Below, one piece after another: positions 5,683 through 11,525 of a stretch of DNA of 12,139 bases. Under the pieces are notes generated by a model that was given only the letters and a program-made list of their open reading frames with translations, made no database searches and was not told where the DNA came from. Source of the stretch: a virus (taxonomy: Duplodnaviria > Heunggongvirae > Uroviricota > Caudoviricetes); IMG/VR virus record IMGVR_UViG_2541047682_000010; one strand, 5' to 3'. Every line of letters starts with the position of its first letter. Position 1 is the stretch's first letter. The position numbers and the translations under genes were made by a program.

Positions 5683-6242
5683 GTGGAGTGGATATGGCAG
5701 CAGTAAAAATCTCAGGTGTGCTGAAAGATGGTGCGGGAAAACCAATACAGAACTGCACTATTCAACTGAAGGCAAAGCGTAACAGCACCACGGTACTGGT
5801 GAACACGGTGGCCTCTGAAAATCCGGATGAAGCCGGGCGTTACAGCATGGATGTTGAGTATGGTCAGTACAGCGTCACCCTGCTGGTTGAAGGTTTTCCG
5901 CCTTCACATGCCGGGACCATTACCGTCTATGAAGGTTCCAGACCAGGTACGCTGAATGATTTTCTCGGTGCCATGACGGAAGATGATGTCATGCCGGAGG
6001 CATTGCGTCGTTTTGAGGCAATGGTGGAAGAAGCGGCACGCAACGCCGAAGCCGCCTCTCAGAGCGCAGCAGCGGCAAAGAAATCCGAAACTGCAGCGGC
6101 ATCATCGAAGAACGCGGCGAAAACCTCAGAAACAAATGCAGCTAACAGCGCACAGGCGGCAGCGTCCTCGCAGACTGCATCGGCAAACTCCGCGACAGCA
6201 GCCAAAAAATCAGAAACCAACGCGAAAAATAGCGAGACAGCC

Positions 6243-6382
6243 GCAAAGACGAGCGAAACCAACGCAAAGTCCAGCCAGACGGCAGCGAAAACAAGCGAAA
6301 CGAATGCCAAAGCCAGTGAAACTGCGGCAAAAAACAGCCAGGTTGCAGCAGCCCAAAGCGAGAGCGCGGCAGCCGGTTCTGC
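6243..6382 (+). repeat. Direct repeat copy 1 (about 140 bp) inside the stf shaft coding region
   Basis: Near-identical to 6432-6571, offset 189 bp (63 codons). Encodes AKTSETNAKSSQTAAKTSETNAKASETAAKNSQ.AAAQSESAAAGS. Confidence 0.75.
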
Positions 6383-6431
6383 GACTTCAGCAGCTGGATC
6401 AGCAACTGCTGCGGCTAACAGCCAGAAAGCT

Positions 6432-6571
6432 GCGAAGACGAGTGAAACTAACGCAAAGTCCAGCCAGACGGCAGCGAAGACCAGCGAAACGAATGCCAAA
6501 GCCAGCGAAACTGCGGCGAAAAACAGTCAGGATGCAGCAGCCCAAAGCGAGAGTGCTGCAGCTGGTTCTGC
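6432..6571 (+). repeat. Direct repeat copy 2 (about 140 bp) inside the stf shaft coding region
   Basis: Near-identical to 6243-6382; same reading frame and same peptide repeat. Confidence 0.75.
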
Positions 6572-7227
6572 AAGCGCGGCGGCTGCTTCTGCCACTGCAT
6601 CAGCCAACAGTCAAAAAGCAGCAAAAACCAGTGAAACCAATGCAAAGACAAGCGAGACTGCAGCGGCGAACTCGGCGAAAGCATCCGCTGCAAGCCAGAC
6701 CGCTGCAAAAGCAAGTGAAGACGCAGCCAGAGAGTATGCAAGCCAGGCAGCAGATCCGTATAAATATGTCTTACAGCCGCTGCCTGATGTGTGGATACCG
6801 TTTAACGATTCACTGGATATGATTACGGGCTTTTTGCCATCATATAAAAAGATTGTTATTGGTGACGACGAAATAACGATGCCTGGCGACAAGATTGTTA
6901 AGTTTAAACGTGCATCGAAAGCAACCTATATTAACAAATCTGGTGTGCTGACAGAGGCTGCCATTGATGAGCCACGATTTGAACGTGATGGCCTGCTTAT
7001 TGAGGGGCAAAGAACTAATCTTCTGCTTAATTCAACAAATCCATCTAAATGGAATAAGTCAGGCAATCTGGAACTCACAGAAATATCCACGGATTCTTTT
7101 AATTTTACTTATGGGAGATTTACTGTAAAAGATACTCTTATTGGTCAGACAAGTGCTATTAATATCGTAACGATTTCTGGCAGTAAAGGGTTTGATGTCA
7201 CAGGTGATGAAAAATATGTGACCATTT

Positions 7228-7232
7228 CATGC
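7228..7232. repeat. IS2 target-site duplication, left copy (CATGC)
   Basis: Identical 5-mer immediately flanks both IS2 termini. IS2 is known to make 5-bp duplications. Confidence 0.85.
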
Positions 7233-7243
7233 TGGATTTGCCC

Positions 7244-8149
7244 CTATATTTCCAGACACCTGTTATCACTTAACCCATTACTGGCTTGCTGCCGCAGATA
7301 TTCCCGTGGCGAGCGATAACCCAGTGCACTATGCGGATGCCATTCGTTATAATGCTCGAACGCCTCTGCAAGGTTCTTTGCTGCCGTTAACCCGTCTGGT
7401 TTGGGCATGACACTGATGTAGTCACGCTTTATCGTTTTCACGAAGCTCTCTGCTATGCCGTTACTCTCCGGACTCCGCACCGCCGTGCTCTTCGGTTCAA
7501 GCCCCAACATCCGGGCAAACTGCCGTGTTTCATTAGCCCGGTAGCATGAACCATTATCCGTCAGCCACTCTACTGGAGACGCCGGAAGCTCGTTGCCGAA
7601 GCGGCGTTCCACCGCTCCCAGCATGACGTCCTGTACTGTTTCACTGTTGAAGCCGCCCGTAGTGACCGCCCAGTGCAGTGCCTCACGGTCACAGCAGTCC
7701 AGCGCGAACGTGACTCGCAGTTTTTCTCCGTTATCACAGCGGAACTCGAACCCGTCAGAGCACCATCGCTGATTACTTTCTTTCACAGCCACTCTGCCTG
7801 TATGTGCCCGTTTCGATGGCGGTACAGCAGGTTTTCGCTCAAGCAACAGCGCATTCTGGCGCATGATCCGGTAAACACGTTTGGCATTGATCGCAGGCAT
7901 ACCATCAAGTTCTGCCTGTCTGCGAAGCAGCGCCCATACCCGACGATAACCATACGTGGGCAGCTCTCCGATAACATGGTGTATACGGAGAAGCACATCC
8001 GTATCATCAGTGTGACGACTGCGGCGGCCATCCATCCAGTCATCGGTTCGTCTGAGAATGACGTGCAACTGCGCACGCGACACCCGGAGACAACGGCTGA
8101 CTAAGCTTACTCCCCATCCCCGGGCAATAAGGGCGCGTGCGCTATCCAC
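7244..8149 (-). CDS. insD: IS2 transposase OrfB (InsD; DDE integrase-like catalytic domain), 301 aa
   Basis: Translation [23 protein letters not shown]...[12 protein letters not shown] is recognised as IS2 InsD. It overlaps insC by 43 nt, where an A6G slippery run (CAAAAAAG on the - strand, about 8149-8156) is the known site of programmed -1 frameshifting that produces the OrfAB transposase. Confidence 0.9.
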
Positions 8150-8472
8150 TTTTTTGCCCGTCCATATTCAACGGCTTCTTTGAGGAGTTCATTTTCCATC
8201 GTTTTCTTGCCGAGCAGGCGCTGGAGTTCTTTAATCTGCTTCATGGCGGCAGCAAGTTCAGAGGCAGGAACAACCTGTTCTCCGGCGGCGACAGCAGTAA
8301 GACTTCCTTCCTGGTATTGCTTACGCCAGAGAAATAACTGGCTGGCTGCCACACCGTGTTGCCGGGCAACGAGGGAGACCGTCATCCCTGGTTCAAAGCT
8401 CTGCTGAACAATTGCGATCTTTTCCTGTGTGGTACGCCGTCTGCGTTTCTCCGGTCCTAAGACATCAATCAT
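8107..8472 (-). CDS. insC: IS2 OrfA (InsC; helix-turn-helix regulator and transposase N-terminal part), 121 aa
   Basis: Translation [56 protein letters not shown]... is recognised as IS2 InsC. The ORF track gives an extended 136-aa frame from 8517; the canonical start is the internal Met. Confidence 0.9.
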
Positions 8473-8563
8473 CTGCTCTCCAATGACTAGTCTAAAAACT
8501 AGTATTAAGACTATCACTTAAATAAGTGATATTGGTTGTCTGGAGATTCAGGGGGCCAGTCTA

Positions 8564-8568
8564 CATGC
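8564..8568. repeat. IS2 target-site duplication, right copy (CATGC)
   Basis: Identical to 7228-7232. Confidence 0.85.
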
Positions 8569-9407
8569 CGTGTAAGAAGTGATGTTGAAAATATAAGGTG
8601 TCGTTTAAGATTTGAACACCATGATGGTTATACTTACACTTTTTTGGGAGATGCTTACCTCAATTTATCAACACTTGTAATTGATAAAACTGGTACTGCT
8701 GCAGACCGTATTATTGCAAAGGCTGTAAAAGATGAGGTTACTGGTTGGATTTTCTATCAGGCTACAATTAATGCACTAGATACAGAGAGCATGATTGGTG
8801 CGATGGTTCAATACGCTCCTGTAAAAGGTTCAGGTACAGCATCTGGAGACTATCTGGATATCGCAACTCCACAAGTGGAAGGTGGATCAAGTGCTTCGTC
8901 ATTTATTGTAACTGATATAACTGCAAGCACTCGCGCAAGCGATATGGTGACAGTCCCAATCAAGAATAACCTTTATAATCTTCCTTTTACGGTTCTTTGT
9001 GAGGTACATAAGAACTGGTATAAAACGCCAAATGCAGCACCGCGTGTTTTTGATACCGGCGGTCATCAAACCGGAGCGGCTATTATTCTTGGCTTCGGTC
9101 GTTCAACAGATTACGACGGATTTCCTTATTGTGATATAGGTTTGGCTAACAGACGGGTAAACGAAAACGCATCGCTTGAAAAAATGGTTATGGGGATGCG
9201 TGTAAAGTCAGATCAGTCTACGTGCTCAGTAAGTAACGGGCGTATATCCAGCGAAAAGAAAGCCACATGGTCCTATATTCAGAACTCCGCAATTATCCGT
9301 ATTGGAGGCCAGACTACAGCCGGGTTGCGTCATTTATTTGGTCATGTCAGGAATTTCAGAATATGGCACAAGGCATTGACTGATGCTCAGATGGGGGAGT
9401 CAATCTA

Positions 9408-9689
9408 ATGAAAGATTTAACACTCAAATTTGCAGACAGGGCCGACTTTTCGGCCTTTATGGATAGCATTGGCTATTATGATGACGAGTCGATGCAGGAT
9501 GATATTCTTATTGACGTGATAGGTAACGTGTACAAAGAAACCGGAGAACTGACTGAAGATGGCGAACCGGTATGTGTTAAGGAAGATGGATATTTTGTAA
9601 ACGTGCGCATCATTAATGATGCAAAAAAATCGTTAATATTCGATGAATACGCGGTTGTAGTTGAACATCAACTTCGTGGCTGGATGTGA
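9408..9689 (+). CDS. Hypothetical small acidic protein (93 aa), translationally coupled to stf
   Basis: The ATG overlaps the stf stop (TAATG). GGGGAG lies 9 nt upstream. Low G+C like the distal stf domain. Asp/Glu-rich. No family recognised. Confidence 0.6.
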   Translation: MKDLTLKFADRADFSAFMDSIGYYDDESMQDDILIDVIGNVYKETGELTEDGEPVCVKEDGYFVNVRIINDAKKSLIFDEYAVVVEHQLRGWM

Positions 9690-9698
9690 GGGAGACAA

Positions 9699-10403
9699 AT
9701 GGCTACATCGACAGTAATTCCAGGAGACATCACCACGTTAAAGGGAGATGTCAGTAAAGCCAAGGAAGATATTTCCTCAATTAACGGAAAAGTATCAACG
9801 CTTCAGGCTGATATGACCAGTGCAAAGCAGGATATCAGCACCAGATACACAAAAACTGAAGTTGATAATAAGCTGAAAAACAAACTGGAAGTGAACGCTC
9901 TGGAAAGCGGTCGTTATGGTGGAGATTTTTACCCGTTGACTGGCCGTGAAGCGTTTTATTTGTGGGGATTGGGCACGACTACAGCGGCGGCAAACCTTTA
10001 TCTTAATCCTGACCCCGCAATTTCGTCTGTGCTGCGGTCAACATCGTCTATCCGCTATAAACATTCAGTAGAGACAATAGATTCAGAGCACGCCGATCTC
10101 ATTTTCAGGATGCGCCCTGTGTGGTACAGGTCACAATGCGAAAATGACAGGCGTGACTGGGGATTCTACGGATTGATTGCCGAGGAAGTAGGAGAAATTG
10201 CCCCTCAGTTTGTACACTGGCGACCAGCTAACGAAGATGATGCACCGGAAGCTATTTCCAGCAATGGCCTTGTTGCCGAAGGTGTAATGTACGAACGTCT
10301 GGTTGTTCCACTGATTCACCATATCCAGAAGCTGACTGAAAGAGTTGATGAACTTGAGTCAGAATTAAAGTTGTTATCCGTTTCCCGAAGCGATATCGGA
10401 TAA
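9699..10403 (+). CDS. Tail-fibre-related protein with a coiled-coil N-terminus and a C-terminal peptidase-S74-like intramolecular-chaperone domain (234 aa)
   Basis: GGGAG lies 6 nt before the ATG. The C-terminal 120 residues carry the characteristic S74 pattern: SSIRYKHSVETID (compare SDxRxKxNI), then RPVWYR, then GLIAEEVGEIAPQFV, then MYERLVVPLIHHIQKLTERVDELESEL. The N-terminus has heptad-like repeats (DITTLKGDVSKAKEDISSINGKVSTLQADMTSAKQDIS). Confidence 0.75.
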   Translation: MATSTVIPGDITTLKGDVSKAKEDISSINGKVSTLQADMTSAKQDISTRYTKTEVDNKLKNKLEVNALESGRYGGDFYPLTGREAFYLWGLGTTTAAANLYLNPDPAISSVLRSTSSIRYKHSVETIDSEHADLIFRMRPVWYRSQCENDRRDWGFYGLIAEEVGEIAPQFVHWRPANEDDAPEAISSNGLVAEGVMYERLVVPLIHHIQKLTERVDELESELKLLSVSRSDIG

Positions 10404-10413
10404 AGGAGGAGTA

Positions 10414-10707
10414 ATGGATATAACACCTTTCCTTCATGCGCTTTGTGCTGTGGCTGCGCAGCTACTGATTGGTCTTTTTACCGGGAACTGGGCTTACGGG
10501 GCGATAGCTGGTTGTACGTTCTTCATTGCGCGTGAACACACCCAGGCAGAATATCGCTGGATTGAAATGTTCGGGCATGGCAAGCGAATGAATATGCCGT
10601 GGTGGGGCGGTTTTGATCCGCGCGCGTGGGATGTGGCAAGCCTGATGGATTTTGCTGTGCCGGTGGTGGCGTGTCTGCTGGTCTGGCTGTTGGTTAATCG
10701 TGGGTGA
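10414..10707 (+). CDS. Hypothetical small membrane protein (97 aa, two to three predicted transmembrane segments)
   Basis: Strong RBS AAGGAGG 7 nt before the ATG. Hydrophobic stretches FLHALCAVAAQLLIGLF, AYGAIAGCTFFIA and FAVPVVACLLVWLLV. G+C is similar to the phage backbone, not the low-GC cassette. Confidence 0.55.
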   Translation: MDITPFLHALCAVAAQLLIGLFTGNWAYGAIAGCTFFIAREHTQAEYRWIEMFGHGKRMNMPWWGGFDPRAWDVASLMDFAVPVVACLLVWLLVNRG

Positions 10708-10717
10708 AAAAAGGTGA

Positions 10718-10837
10718 GCTGTATATGCAACGGAGGAAGAAACCTCGTTGCTGGAAGCCTGGAAGAAGTATCGGGTGTTGCTGAACCGTGTTGATACGTC
10801 AACTGCACAGGATATTGAATGGCCAGCACTGCCGTAG
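10718..10837 (+). pseudogene. tfa: 3' remnant (39 codons) of the tail fibre assembly gene tfa
   Basis: The frame opens right after a TGA at 10715-10717 and reads [39 protein letters not shown]-stop. This matches the conserved C-terminus of lambda-type Tfa as I recall it (..[30 protein letters not shown]..). There is no start codon and no N-terminal Tfa domain. Confidence 0.7.
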
Positions 10838-10934: not shown

Positions 10935-11525
10935 TTATATGTCAGGTGTCTGAAGTTTTGCTTTGGCTCTTAAAATGGTTTGCCGCGAGGTTTTGAATTC
11001 CCGGGCAATGGCACTTATACTTACACCTGACTTAATTCGTTCGAATACCACCTGTTTCTGTTCTTCATTTAACACAGGTGGTCGACCAAAACGTTTCCCT
11101 GCGCCCCGGGCTCTTACTATCCCGGAATGAGTGCGTTCAAGTAAAAGGTCTCGTTCAAATTCAGCGACTGCTGAAATTACTTGCATCATCATTTTCCCTG
11201 TTGGACTGGTCAGGTCAATGCCCCCCAATGCTAAGCAATGCACTCTGATACCTGTTTCGGTCAGTTGTTCCACTGTTTTCCTGATATCCATTGCATTACA
11301 ACCAAGGCGATCCAGTTTTGTCACAATCAATTGATCACCACATTTCAGACGAGCAAGCAACCGGTTAAAACCAGGACGCTCACTGGTTGCTGCTGAGCCG
11401 CTAATGTGTTCTTCGATTATTTGCTGAGGTTTGATTTTAAAACCTGCACTTTCGATTTCCCGGCGTTGATTTTCGGTGGTCTGATCCAGCGTTGATATCC
11501 GACAGTAAGCAAAAATTCGAGACAT
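10935..11525 (-). CDS. pin: Serine recombinase (resolvase/invertase family, PinR/PinQ-like), 196 aa
   Basis: N-terminal catalytic motif YCRISTLDQ with the nucleophilic Ser, and a C-terminal helix-turn-helix ([20 protein letters not shown]). The sequence matches my recollection of the E. coli prophage PinR/PinQ proteins. Position next to tfa is as in Rac and Qin. Confidence 0.9.

What the first reader, a model, noticed from the sequence alone, without database searches (positions are those of the whole stretch)
9408..9689. Acidic 93-aa ORF translationally coupled to the fibre gene
Its start codon overlaps the stf stop (TAATG) and it has its own Shine-Dalgarno, suggesting stoichiometric co-expression with the fibre. 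It is strongly acidic and I recognise no family. Small acidic proteins encoded next to receptor-binding proteins can be chaperones or tip adaptors.
Basis: inference. Interest (0 to 1): 0.5.

Follow-up and report, generated by a model that had tools for sequence, protein, structure and literature searches.

The report
Small partner gene of lectin-tipped fibres
This 93-codon gene is real and conserved, and across many unrelated phages it always sits directly behind a tail-fibre end that carries a sugar-binding (lectin-like) domain, so it is most likely an uncharacterised helper protein for that fibre tip.

Summary
ORF 9408-9689 encodes a 93-aa acidic protein (pI 4.2, net charge -12). Its ATG overlaps the stop of the stf reading frame (TAATG), and a GGGGGAG Shine-Dalgarno lies 8 nt upstream. 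One caveat: in this window stf is split by an IS2 element (7233-8563), so the ORF follows only a 3' remnant.

The protein does belong to a family, phrog_1361, whose function is unknown. It evolves under purifying selection.

In every locus where the flanks could be read, it directly follows an ORF ending in the same distal module. That module is a GTA-head-spike-fibre domain plus a LamG/CBM-like lectin domain. The hosts are lambdoid, T1-like, Dhillonvirus, Queuovirinae, T5-like, rV5-like, P2-like and Mu-like phages.

The module and the small ORF move together as a cassette. In rV5-like phages the cassette replaces a fibre end that carries its own S74 intramolecular chaperone.

A second fibre often starts 9-12 nt downstream. 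The small ORF is also kept, under selection, where no second fibre exists.

Best reading: a dedicated, stoichiometric accessory protein (chaperone or bound subunit) of the lectin-type fibre tip. The function is inferred, not shown. I found no solved structural relative and no paper describing it.

The parts
5694..7232 (+). 5' part of stf (side tail fibre): lambda-type N-terminal domain, Ala-rich repeat shaft, start of the distal module. Cut off by IS2 at about codon 513.
   Evidence: Pfam phage_tail_N E 5e-67. Collinear with the intact 792-aa Stf of E. coli S88 up to window 7232.
7233..8563 (-). IS2-type insertion sequence (IS3 family), 1331 bp, with a 5-bp target duplication. orfA is 8107-8517 and orfB is 7244-8149, both on the minus strand.
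   Evidence: The blastn break against S88 shows 5 duplicated bases. Terminal inverted repeats lie at 7241-7272 and 8523-8554. Pfam HTH_Tnp_1 and rve match.
8564..9408 (+). 3' part of stf: the rest of the GTA-head-spike-fibre-like domain plus the C-terminal LamG/CBM-like lectin domain. This is the distal receptor-binding module. There is no S74 domain and no Tfa partner.
9393..9399 (+). Shine-Dalgarno GGGGGAG of the small ORF, embedded in the last codons of stf (..M-G-E-S-I*).
   Evidence: Read from the sequence. A GGAG or GGGGGA core is kept at the same place in Tritos, ESCO3, tinuso, VSe12, SelmaRatti, 2G7a and EmilHeitz.
9408..9689 (+). The finding: 93-aa acidic alpha/beta protein, a member of phrog_1361. 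It is the proposed accessory protein of the lectin-type fibre tip.
   Evidence: phrog_1361 E 3.6e-46 over the full length. dN/dS 0.28. AF2 pLDDT 85.9 with order b1-a1-a2-b2-b3-b4-b5-a3. Synteny with the distal module in every readable locus.
9699..10403 (+). Second, short fibre (234 aa). It has a conserved N-terminal anchor motif (MATSTVIPGDITTLK), a coiled coil and a C-terminal S74 intramolecular chaperone domain (aa 116-172). It starts 9 nt after the small ORF.
   Evidence: Pfam Peptidase_S74 scores 27.3 bits, above its cut-off of 22. phrog_3299 and phrog_4563 match. The N-terminal motif is shared with T1-like, Queuovirinae, T5-like and Dhillonvirus second fibres.
10414..10707 (+). 97-aa predicted membrane protein (phrog_1443). 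It is the last gene of the unit in lambdoid phages. Context only.
   Evidence: phrog_1443 E 5.8e-59. It follows either the second fibre or the small ORF directly in lambdoid phages.
10727..10837 (+). Remnant of a tail-fibre-assembly (tfa) gene. Context only.
   Evidence: Annotated as a partial pseudogene at the corresponding place in S88. Coordinates were transferred using the blastn offset.
10935..11525 (-). Pin/Hin-type serine invertase. Context only.
   Evidence: Pfam Resolvase E 2.5e-36 and HTH_7.

Best explanation
The ORF encodes a small acidic alpha/beta protein. I propose it is the dedicated accessory partner of one mobile receptor-binding cassette.

**The cassette.** It is the distal end of a tail fibre, built from a GTA-head-spike-fibre-like domain followed by a LamG/CBM-type lectin domain.

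**Proposed mechanism.**
- The protein is made in roughly equimolar amounts with the fibre, by translational coupling plus a strong embedded Shine-Dalgarno.
- It binds the conserved framework of the distal module, probably near the invariant C-terminal strands (..RIGGQT..G.RHLFGH.RN.RIW..LTD.Q), and not the variable sugar-binding loops.
- It is needed for the fibre tip to fold, stay soluble or assemble correctly.
- It may or may not stay bound in the virion.
- It fills the genetic slot that Tfa, or a C-terminal S74 intramolecular chaperone, fills in other fibre alleles.

**What is shown:** that it is a coding gene, its family membership, its fold class, its strict synteny and cassette behaviour, and its independence from the second fibre.

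**What is inferred:** physical binding to the module, and the chaperone or assembly role.

In this particular prophage the partner gene is broken by IS2, so this copy is probably idle.
For: 1. **Coding gene under selection.** dN/dS is 0.28 in frame against 0.7-1.0 out of frame. It is 0.07-0.15 in rV5-like phages.

2. **Strict synteny in phage records.** 181 records hold the ORF by tblastn. About 20 more hold a divergent T5-like form. That total matches the 201 records holding at least 80% of the distal module.

3. **Constant partner upstream, variable gene downstream.** In the nine phage loci compared in detail, the upstream gene's last ~430 aa are homologous while its N-terminus and the downstream gene vary.

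4. **Coupled arrangement.** The start overlaps the fibre stop (TAATG or ATGA) in 87 of 90 loci; in the other three no upstream ORF could be read.

5. **Cassette behaviour.** EmilHeitz bas49_0026 and rV5 gp41 are 90% identical over aa 1-1049 and then diverge. rV5 ends in a Peptidase_S74 chaperone domain and has no small ORF. EmilHeitz ends in the LamG module and has the small ORF. The missing S74 domain was also noted for phage LL12 in PMC7229145.

6. **Same pairing in very distant relatives.** These are 25-55% identical small proteins from environmental phage contigs and from Buttiauxella and Cupriavidus prophages. The small ORF again sits within 13 nt of the end of an ORF with GTA_spike_fiber domain(s) and the LamG terminal motif (16 of 18 readable loci; about 27 nt in the other two), in P2-like and Mu-like contexts.

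7. **Each fibre has its own helper.** In the P2-like contig L105 the LamG-ended H fibre is followed by the small ORF. The next, gp37-type fibre is followed by its own Caudo_TAP/Tfa.

8. **Independence from the second fibre.** The small ORF is kept where there is no second fibre: 2G7a, ev243, mEp460, rV5-likes, L104 and L128.

9. **It does not read the variable loops.** Small proteins at least 90% identical pair with 11 or more clusters of the LamG body. Its divergence tracks the fibre's last ~28 residues best (Spearman 0.74, against 0.37-0.60 elsewhere).

10. **One transcription unit.** No terminator-like site lies between stf, the ORF, fibre 2 and ORF97.
Against: - **The module may not need a trimerisation chaperone.** It looks like globular, probably monomeric beta-sandwich domains: it models well as a monomer, and the RcGTA head fibre is a single subunit (PMC7296036).
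- **A related fibre works alone.** The RcGTA head fibre was expressed functionally in E. coli on its own, and its downstream gene is a capsule-synthesis gene (PMC10218006).
- **Loose co-evolution.** FGS017 has a 93% identical module but a 41% identical small protein. PhiR49_1 has a 56% identical module but a 90% identical small protein.
- **Confounded correlation.** The correlation with the fibre's last residues is confounded by physical adjacency on the DNA.
- **No virion proteomics resolves a 10-kDa protein in these phages.** The AKFV33 study analysed four gel bands only.
Confidence: 0.5

Rival explanations
1. Branch-point adaptor. The small protein stays on the tip or side of fibre 1 and provides, or completes, the docking site for the N-terminal anchor of the second fibre encoded 9-12 nt downstream. 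The result would be a branched fibre with two receptor-binding ends.
For: - A second fibre lacking any virion-attachment domain follows immediately in lambdoid, T1-like, Queuovirinae, T5-like and Dhillonvirus phages. Its N-terminal motif M-x-T-x-T-x-IP-x-DI-x-x-L[KQ] is conserved while the rest is unrelated.
- DNA identity blocks between the window and Tritos or ESCO3 run from the fibre-1 end, through the small ORF, into the first ~20 codons of fibre 2.
- A short second fibre also follows in the distant P2-like contig L105.
- Branched LtfA/LtfB fibres are established in T5-like phages (PMC4728585).
Against: - The small ORF is kept, with normal sequence and under purifying selection, where no second fibre exists. 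These cases are the rV5-likes (a terminator follows, no anchor motif in 49 kb of structural genes), the lambdoids 2G7a, ev243 and mEp460, the Mu-like L104 and E. coli L128.
- In DT57C and phiEco32, branching needs no separate small protein.
- The most conserved part of fibre 1 (first ~120 residues of the module, 72-76% mean identity) is an equally good docking site.
Confidence: 0.2
2. Lectin-site mask or regulator. The acidic protein occupies or shields the carbohydrate-binding face of the LamG domain, acting as a polyanionic glycan mimic. It would keep new fibres from sticking to host glycans or debris until it is released.
For: - Strong net negative charge.
- The partner domain has a lectin/CBM40/pentraxin fold.
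- The arrangement implies stoichiometric synthesis.
- The low-confidence C-terminal tail (P-x-R-x-W, pLDDT 63) could order on binding.
Against: - The sugar-binding loops are the hypervariable part of the module, yet nearly identical small proteins serve 11 or more LamG variants. A site-specific mask should co-vary with those loops.
- I know of no precedent among phage fibres.
- The idea rests on inference only.
Confidence: 0.1
3. Unrelated passenger ('moron'). The protein could be, for example, an acidic DNA-mimic anti-defence protein or another host-directed factor. On this view it merely travels with the fibre cassette because of tight linkage.
For: - Small acidic phage proteins are often anti-restriction or anti-defence factors (general knowledge).
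- There is no functional annotation anywhere.
- The end of lambdoid tail operons is a known moron site; Lom and ORF97 are here.
Against: - Linkage to the same protein domain persists across lambdoid, T1-, T5-, rV5-, P2- and Mu-like phages and down to about 25-30% identity, always with overlapping or abutting start. This is hard to explain without functional coupling.
- It is expressed late from within a structural operon, with no promoter of its own. That timing is wrong for most anti-defence proteins.
- There is no PADLOC match, although that library covers defence systems, not counter-defence.
Confidence: 0.07

Closest known systems
Tail fibre assembly proteins of the Tfa / P2 G / Mu U type (Pfam Caudo_TAP, PF02413)
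   Same: - The gene lies immediately downstream of the fibre gene.
- It is exchanged together with the fibre's C-terminal receptor-binding part as a cassette.
- It is expected to act on the distal end of the fibre.
- In contig L105 the small ORF and a true Caudo_TAP gene occupy equivalent positions behind two successive fibre genes.
   Different: - No sequence similarity: no Pfam hit at E 0.1.
- About half the size (93 aa; lambda Tfa is 194 aa from my own knowledge, and the L105 Caudo_TAP ORF is 139 aa).
- The client is a globular lectin-type module, not an intertwined trimeric tip.
- No experimental evidence of chaperone activity.
C-terminal intramolecular chaperone of fibres and spikes (Peptidase_S74, PF13884; K1F endosialidase, T5 pb1, DT57C LtfA/LtfB)
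   Same: It appears to be a functional alternative at the same locus. rV5 gp41 ends in S74. The otherwise 90% identical EmilHeitz protein ends in the LamG module plus the separate small ORF.
   Different: - It is a separate polypeptide, not a cleavable domain.
- There is no S74 match in the small ORF or in fibre 1.
- S74 is present in the neighbouring second fibre instead.
Branched lateral fibres of T5-like phages (DT57C LtfA/LtfB; phiEco32 gp14/gp15)
   Same: - Two successive fibre genes.
- The second has only a short conserved N-terminal anchor and its own S74 domain.
- T5-like phages such as AKFV33, FFH1 and SelmaRatti carry exactly the fibre-small ORF-fibre arrangement.
   Different: - In DT57C both fibres carry S74, and the paper describes only the two ltf genes at that locus; no third gene is mentioned.
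- 'LtfC' of DT57C is the collar protein upstream of ltfA, not this family.
RcGTA head spike fibre GhsB / Rcc01080 (NCBIfam NF048003 GTA_spike_fiber)
   Same: The partner fibre's distal module contains this domain above the curated cut-off: 58.6 against 36 bits in S88 Stf, and 74-245 bits in the distant partners L104, L123 and L109. It is a flexible, glycan-binding appendage.
   Different: - In R. capsulatus the gene downstream of rcc01080 is a capsule-synthesis gene.
- The fibre was expressed alone and was functional.
- So a small partner is not universal for this domain. It seems tied to the version that ends in the LamG-type domain.

Membership tests
phrog_1361 (PHROGs, unknown function) | Full-length match to the family profile | tested here: met
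   E 3.6e-46, 156 bits, residues 1-93 on profile positions 1-92 of 92.
phrog_1361 (PHROGs, unknown function) | Conserved core motifs seen here's alignments: L-x-F near the N-terminus, D-x-I-G, G-[YWF]-x-V-N-x-R and P-x-R-x-W at the C-terminus | tested here: met
   The window protein has LKF (6-8), DVIG (36-39), GYFVNVR (61-67) and LRGWM (89-93). In the last motif the usual P is replaced by Q.
Tfa / Caudo_TAP tail fibre assembly proteins (PF02413) | Sequence match to the Caudo_TAP profile | tested here: not met
   No Pfam family at E <= 0.1. No NCBIfam family.
Tfa / Caudo_TAP tail fibre assembly proteins (PF02413) | Gene immediately downstream of the fibre gene and co-inherited with its C-terminal part | tested here: met
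Tfa / Caudo_TAP tail fibre assembly proteins (PF02413) | Required for fibre folding or assembly, and binds the fibre tip | not testable with these tools
   Needs genetics or biochemistry, or a multimer structure prediction. The structure tool here accepts single chains only.
Peptidase_S74 intramolecular chaperone (PF13884) | S74 domain present in the protein or in its client fibre | tested here: not met
   Absent from the small ORF and from fibre 1 of S88, EmilHeitz, VSe12, tinuso and SelmaRatti. Present in rV5 gp41 and in the second fibres.
Solved-structure relatives (any PDB family) | Significant sequence or fold match to a solved chain | tested here: not met
Anti-phage defence proteins (PADLOC) | Match to a defence-system profile | tested here: not met
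   0 families at E <= 0.1.
LamG / ConA-like lectin superfamily (for the partner fibre's last domain) | LamG-type beta-sandwich fold and C-terminal sequence signature | tested here: met
NF048003 GTA_spike_fiber domain (for the partner fibre) | Score above the curated cut-off of 36 bits | tested here: met
   58.6 bits on intact S88 Stf residues 435-636. The IS-truncated window fragment alone reaches 29.6 bits.

The most novel reading that the evidence does not exclude
The small protein is a previously unrecognised structural subunit of lectin-tipped fibres, a universal 'socket'. On this reading it stays bound to the LamG/GTA-spike-fibre module. In the phages that have a second fibre, it captures that fibre's short N-terminal anchor (M-x-T-x-T-x-IP-x-DI-x-x-LK). 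Unrelated phages could then bolt a second receptor-binding fibre onto the first. The cassette of fibre tip, socket and anchor would be a portable branching device that spreads between sipho- and myoviruses.
Probability: 0.15. Interest if true: 0.65.

Novelty: new variant of a known kind. Interest (0 to 1): 0.45.

Why it matters
Side and lateral fibres with this lectin-type tip are common. The small gene is in about 18% of complete E. coli genomes. The fibre tip is in about 200 sequenced phages, including BASEL collection members and T5-, T1- and rV5-like therapeutic candidates. These fibres are thought to decide which surface glycans a phage can use.

If the small protein is required for a working tip, three things follow:
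- Any attempt to transplant these receptor-binding modules into lambda-based or other delivery particles must carry the small gene along.
- Annotation pipelines could name several hundred 'hypothetical proteins'.
- It would add a third solution to how phages mature fibre ends, beside Tfa-type chaperones and S74 intramolecular chaperones. This one serves a globular lectin module and not an intertwined trimer.

Tried and rejected
**Searches that found nothing**
- Pfam, NCBIfam and PADLOC scans of the small protein found nothing.
- BFVD returned only uncharacterised phage proteins.

- The afdb50 fold library was not available.
P0166 found nothing.
- The look-up of encoding contigs had no record for P0171.

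**Spurious protein hits**
- Three long repeat proteins in the representative search (P0148, P0161, P0162) are multi-repeat chance matches.

**Literature dead ends**
- The two BASEL papers discuss the fibre loci but not this ORF.
- The base-editor preprint on engineered lambda particles concerns lambda-P2 chimeras only.
- 'LtfC' of DT57C is the collar protein.
- Bas63 in the PhageMaP study is a Felixounavirus without this gene.
- AKFV33 proteomics covered four gel bands.
- The SIA3lw and Hf4s papers say nothing on it.
- rcc01081, next to the RcGTA head fibre gene, is a capsule-synthesis gene.
- 'Putative lateral tail fiber chaperone' in phage VogelGryff is the S74-bearing second fibre, not the small ORF.

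**Ideas considered and dropped**
- *Stop-codon read-through fusing the small ORF to fibre 2.* They are in frame here, separated by TGA plus 9 nt. The spacing is 9 to 12 nt in other phages (10-11 in some), so the frame is not conserved.
- *A second copy of the arrangement in rV5-likes (bas49_0038-0040).* The 88-aa ORF there is an unrelated membrane protein.
- *Testing a complex by structure prediction.* The tool takes single window-encoded chains and returns no coordinates, so it could not be used for this.

Full report
**Setting.** The window is the tail end of an E. coli lambdoid prophage.
- The genes are K (JAB + NlpC/P60), I, J (1131 aa), Lom, stf, the 93-codon ORF, a 234-aa fibre with an S74 domain, a 97-aa membrane protein, a tfa remnant and a Pin-type invertase.
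- The region is about 99% identical to a prophage next to prfC in E. coli S88 and APEC O1.
- Compared with S88, stf here is interrupted by a 1331-bp IS2-type element at 7233-8563 with a 5-bp target duplication. The reading frame that ends at 9408 is therefore only the last 281 codons of a 792-codon gene.

**Check of the observation.**
- ATG 9408 shares one base with the TAA of the stf frame (TAATG). GGGGGAG lies 8 nt upstream. The product has 93 aa, pI 4.17 and net charge about -12.
- It is not a chance ORF. Pairwise dN/dS among 39 distinct alleles has a median of 0.28 in frame, against 1.0 and 0.71 in the shifted frames.
- It occurs in 990 of 5426 complete E. coli genomes.
- Relatives down to about 30% identity keep its length.
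- No terminator-like site separates stf, the ORF, the second fibre and ORF97, and promoter-like sites are fewer than expected by chance. It is one late transcription unit.

**Family and fold.**
- The protein matches phrog_1361 ('unknown function') end to end (E 3.6e-46). It matches nothing in Pfam, NCBIfam or PADLOC.
- A scan of 1.84 billion cluster representatives found only 48 hits. All were small proteins except three spurious repeat proteins, so the family is narrow and never fused to another domain.
- AlphaFold2 with a 19-sequence alignment gives a confident model (pLDDT 85.9, pTM 0.72). The order is beta1-alpha1-alpha2-beta2-beta3-beta4-beta5-alpha3, followed by a less confident C-terminal tail.

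**The constant neighbour.**
- tblastn finds the ORF in 181 phage records: lambdoid phages, Drexlerviridae, Dhillonvirus, Queuovirinae, T5-like Markadamsvirinae and rV5-like myoviruses.
- A divergent T5-like subgroup (SelmaRatti, FFH1, AKFV33) adds about 20 more.
- The last ~430 residues of S88 Stf are found at 80% coverage or more in 201 phage records, so the two counts agree.
- In the nine loci compared in detail, the fibre upstream has unrelated N-terminal parts: the lambda Stf N-domain, the T5 Ltf N-terminus or the rV5 gp41 body. All share this distal module at 34-93% identity.
- In 87 of 90 loci the small ORF's start overlaps the fibre's stop as TAATG or ATGA. In the other three no upstream ORF could be read.

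**Cassette behaviour.**
- EmilHeitz bas49_0026 and rV5 gp41 are 90% identical for 1049 residues and then diverge. rV5 ends in a Peptidase_S74 intramolecular chaperone domain and has no small ORF. EmilHeitz ends in the distal module, lacks S74 and has the small ORF. The missing S74 domain in this allele was noted for phage LL12 in PMC7229145.
- In E. coli contig L128 the module is a stand-alone 416-aa protein, again followed by an 88-aa family member (E 2e-22) and nothing else.

**What the partner module is.**
- Intact S88 Stf matches NCBIfam NF048003 'GTA_spike_fiber' above the cut-off (58.6 against 36 bits, residues 435-636).
- Its end carries the Laminin_G_3 signature (..RHLFGH.RN.RIW..LTD.Q..). 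This is weak in the window copy and above threshold in relatives.
- An AlphaFold2 model of the window-encoded 275 residues (pLDDT 80) shows two beta-sandwich domains joined by a disordered linker.
- The RcGTA head fibre that defines NF048003 is a single, flexible, capsule-binding subunit (PMC7296036).
- The fibre tip is therefore most likely a globular lectin module, not an intertwined trimer.

**Distant relatives.**
- A 94-aa member only 31% identical to the window protein (P0167) led to 24 environmental phage contigs and to prophages of Buttiauxella and Cupriavidus.
- Wherever the flank is present, the small ORF again sits within 13 nt of the end of a 347-974-aa ORF with the LamG-type terminal motif (16 of 18 readable loci; about 27 nt in L118 and L126). 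Several of these ORFs have strong GTA_spike_fiber matches, up to 245 bits.
- The contexts are new.
  - Contig L105 is P2-like: W-J-I-H(LamG end)-small ORF-short gp37-type fibre-Tfa(Caudo_TAP)-sheath-tube.
  - Contig L104 is Mu-like, with the pair inserted between the DNA-circulation protein and the baseplate hub.
- In L105 each of two successive fibres is followed by its own accessory gene. This is the clearest positional argument that the small ORF is the accessory gene of the LamG-type end.

**The second fibre.**
- In lambdoid, T1-like, Queuovirinae, T5-like and Dhillonvirus phages a second fibre starts 9-12 nt after the small ORF. Its N-terminus (M-x-T-x-T-x-IP-x-DI-x-x-L[KQ]) is conserved, its body is variable and it has its own S74 domain.
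- In the VSe12 and Ioannina records this gene is frameshifted.
- DNA identity blocks with Tritos and ESCO3 run from the fibre-1 end into the first ~20 codons of fibre 2. This fits an anchor that docks on something encoded upstream, as in the branched LtfA/LtfB fibres (PMC4728585).
- But the small ORF is retained without any second fibre in several lineages:
  - the lambdoids 2G7a, ev243 and mEp460;
  - L104 and L128;
  - all rV5-likes examined, where a terminator follows, no anchor motif exists in 49 kb of structural genes and dN/dS is 0.07-0.15.
- Its primary role therefore cannot be to hold fibre 2.

**Limits of co-variation.**
- Within E. coli prophages, small proteins at least 90% identical are combined with 11 or more clusters of the LamG body and at least three kinds of second fibre.
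- FGS017 has a 93% identical module with a 41% identical small protein. PhiR49_1 shows the reverse pattern.
- The small protein's divergence tracks the last ~28 fibre residues best (Spearman 0.74, against 0.37-0.60 for other segments). This may only reflect adjacency on the DNA.
- The protein thus reads conserved framework, not the specificity loops.

**Conclusion.**
- The best-supported reading is a dedicated, stoichiometrically produced accessory protein of the lectin-type fibre tip. It would be a folding or assembly helper that may remain bound, occupying the slot filled elsewhere by Tfa or by an S74 domain (confidence about 0.5).
- The rivals are a branch-point adaptor for the second fibre (0.2), a mask of the lectin site (0.1) and an unrelated passenger (0.07).
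- None of the papers I could search characterises the protein. Public annotations call it hypothetical throughout.
- In this window the copy is probably idle, because IS2 has broken its partner gene.

Noticed in passing
window 7233-8563: An IS2-type element (1331 bp, 5-bp target duplication, orfA/orfB on the minus strand) splits stf at about codon 513. Flanking DNA is ~99% identical to the intact S88 prophage (the small ORF itself is 100% identical), so the insertion looks recent and probably silences the whole distal fibre unit by polarity.
   Followed up: yes
window 10727-10837 and 10935-11525: A tfa (tail fibre assembly) remnant lies next to a Pin/Hin-type invertase. This looks like the relic of an older invertible stf-tfa segment that the lectin-tip cassette displaced. 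I did not search for invertase crossover sites.
   Followed up: partly
window 10414-10707: The 97-aa predicted membrane protein (phrog_1443) closes the unit in lambdoid phages. It follows the small ORF directly when the second fibre is absent (2G7a, ev243, mEp460). Function unknown; possibly a moron or an exclusion protein.
   Followed up: partly
window 9699-9770; L085 5290-5420; L088 4270-4350: The second fibres share an N-terminal anchor motif M-x-T-x-T-x-IP-x-DI-x-x-L[KQ] across five phage groups. In the GenBank records of VSe12 and Ioannina this gene is frameshifted and annotated from an internal start. In phage 'rolling' it is not annotated at all.
   Followed up: partly
window 9390-9408: The last codons of fibre 1 (Q-M-G-E-S-I; elsewhere K-E, R-E or M-E) always spell a GGAG or GGGGGA core. 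The fibre's C-terminal residues therefore seem constrained by the Shine-Dalgarno of the small ORF.
   Followed up: partly
window 9408-10403: The small ORF and the second fibre are in the same frame, separated by TGA plus 9 nt, so read-through would fuse them. The spacing is 9 to 12 nt in other phages (10-11 in some), so this is probably coincidental.
   Followed up: yes
L128 5464-7528 (E. coli GCA_013425175.1): The distal module exists as a stand-alone 416-aa protein, preceded by a 119-aa ORF and followed by an 88-aa family member, downstream of a 1649-aa J-like protein. This suggests the module can be a separate, non-covalently attached subunit.
   Followed up: partly
L129 3267-4433 (phage VogelGryff bas25_0024): This gene is annotated 'putative lateral tail fiber chaperone', but it occupies the second-fibre position directly after the small ORF. 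The name probably comes from an S74 'chaperone of endosialidase' domain like those found in other second fibres (not checked for this gene). The real candidate accessory gene next to it is annotated as hypothetical.
   Followed up: partly
window 6228-6665: The Ala/Ser/Thr-rich shaft of Stf contains an internal ~249-bp direct duplication at 83% identity (KTSETNAK.. repeats). This is a likely source of length variation between Stf alleles.
   Followed up: no
L104 2592-4282 (IMG/VR Mu-like contig): A 469-aa GTA-spike-fibre/LamG protein plus the small ORF sit between the DNA-circulation protein and the baseplate hub gene of a Mu-like tail cluster. This is an unusual place for a receptor-binding appendage.
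   Followed up: partly
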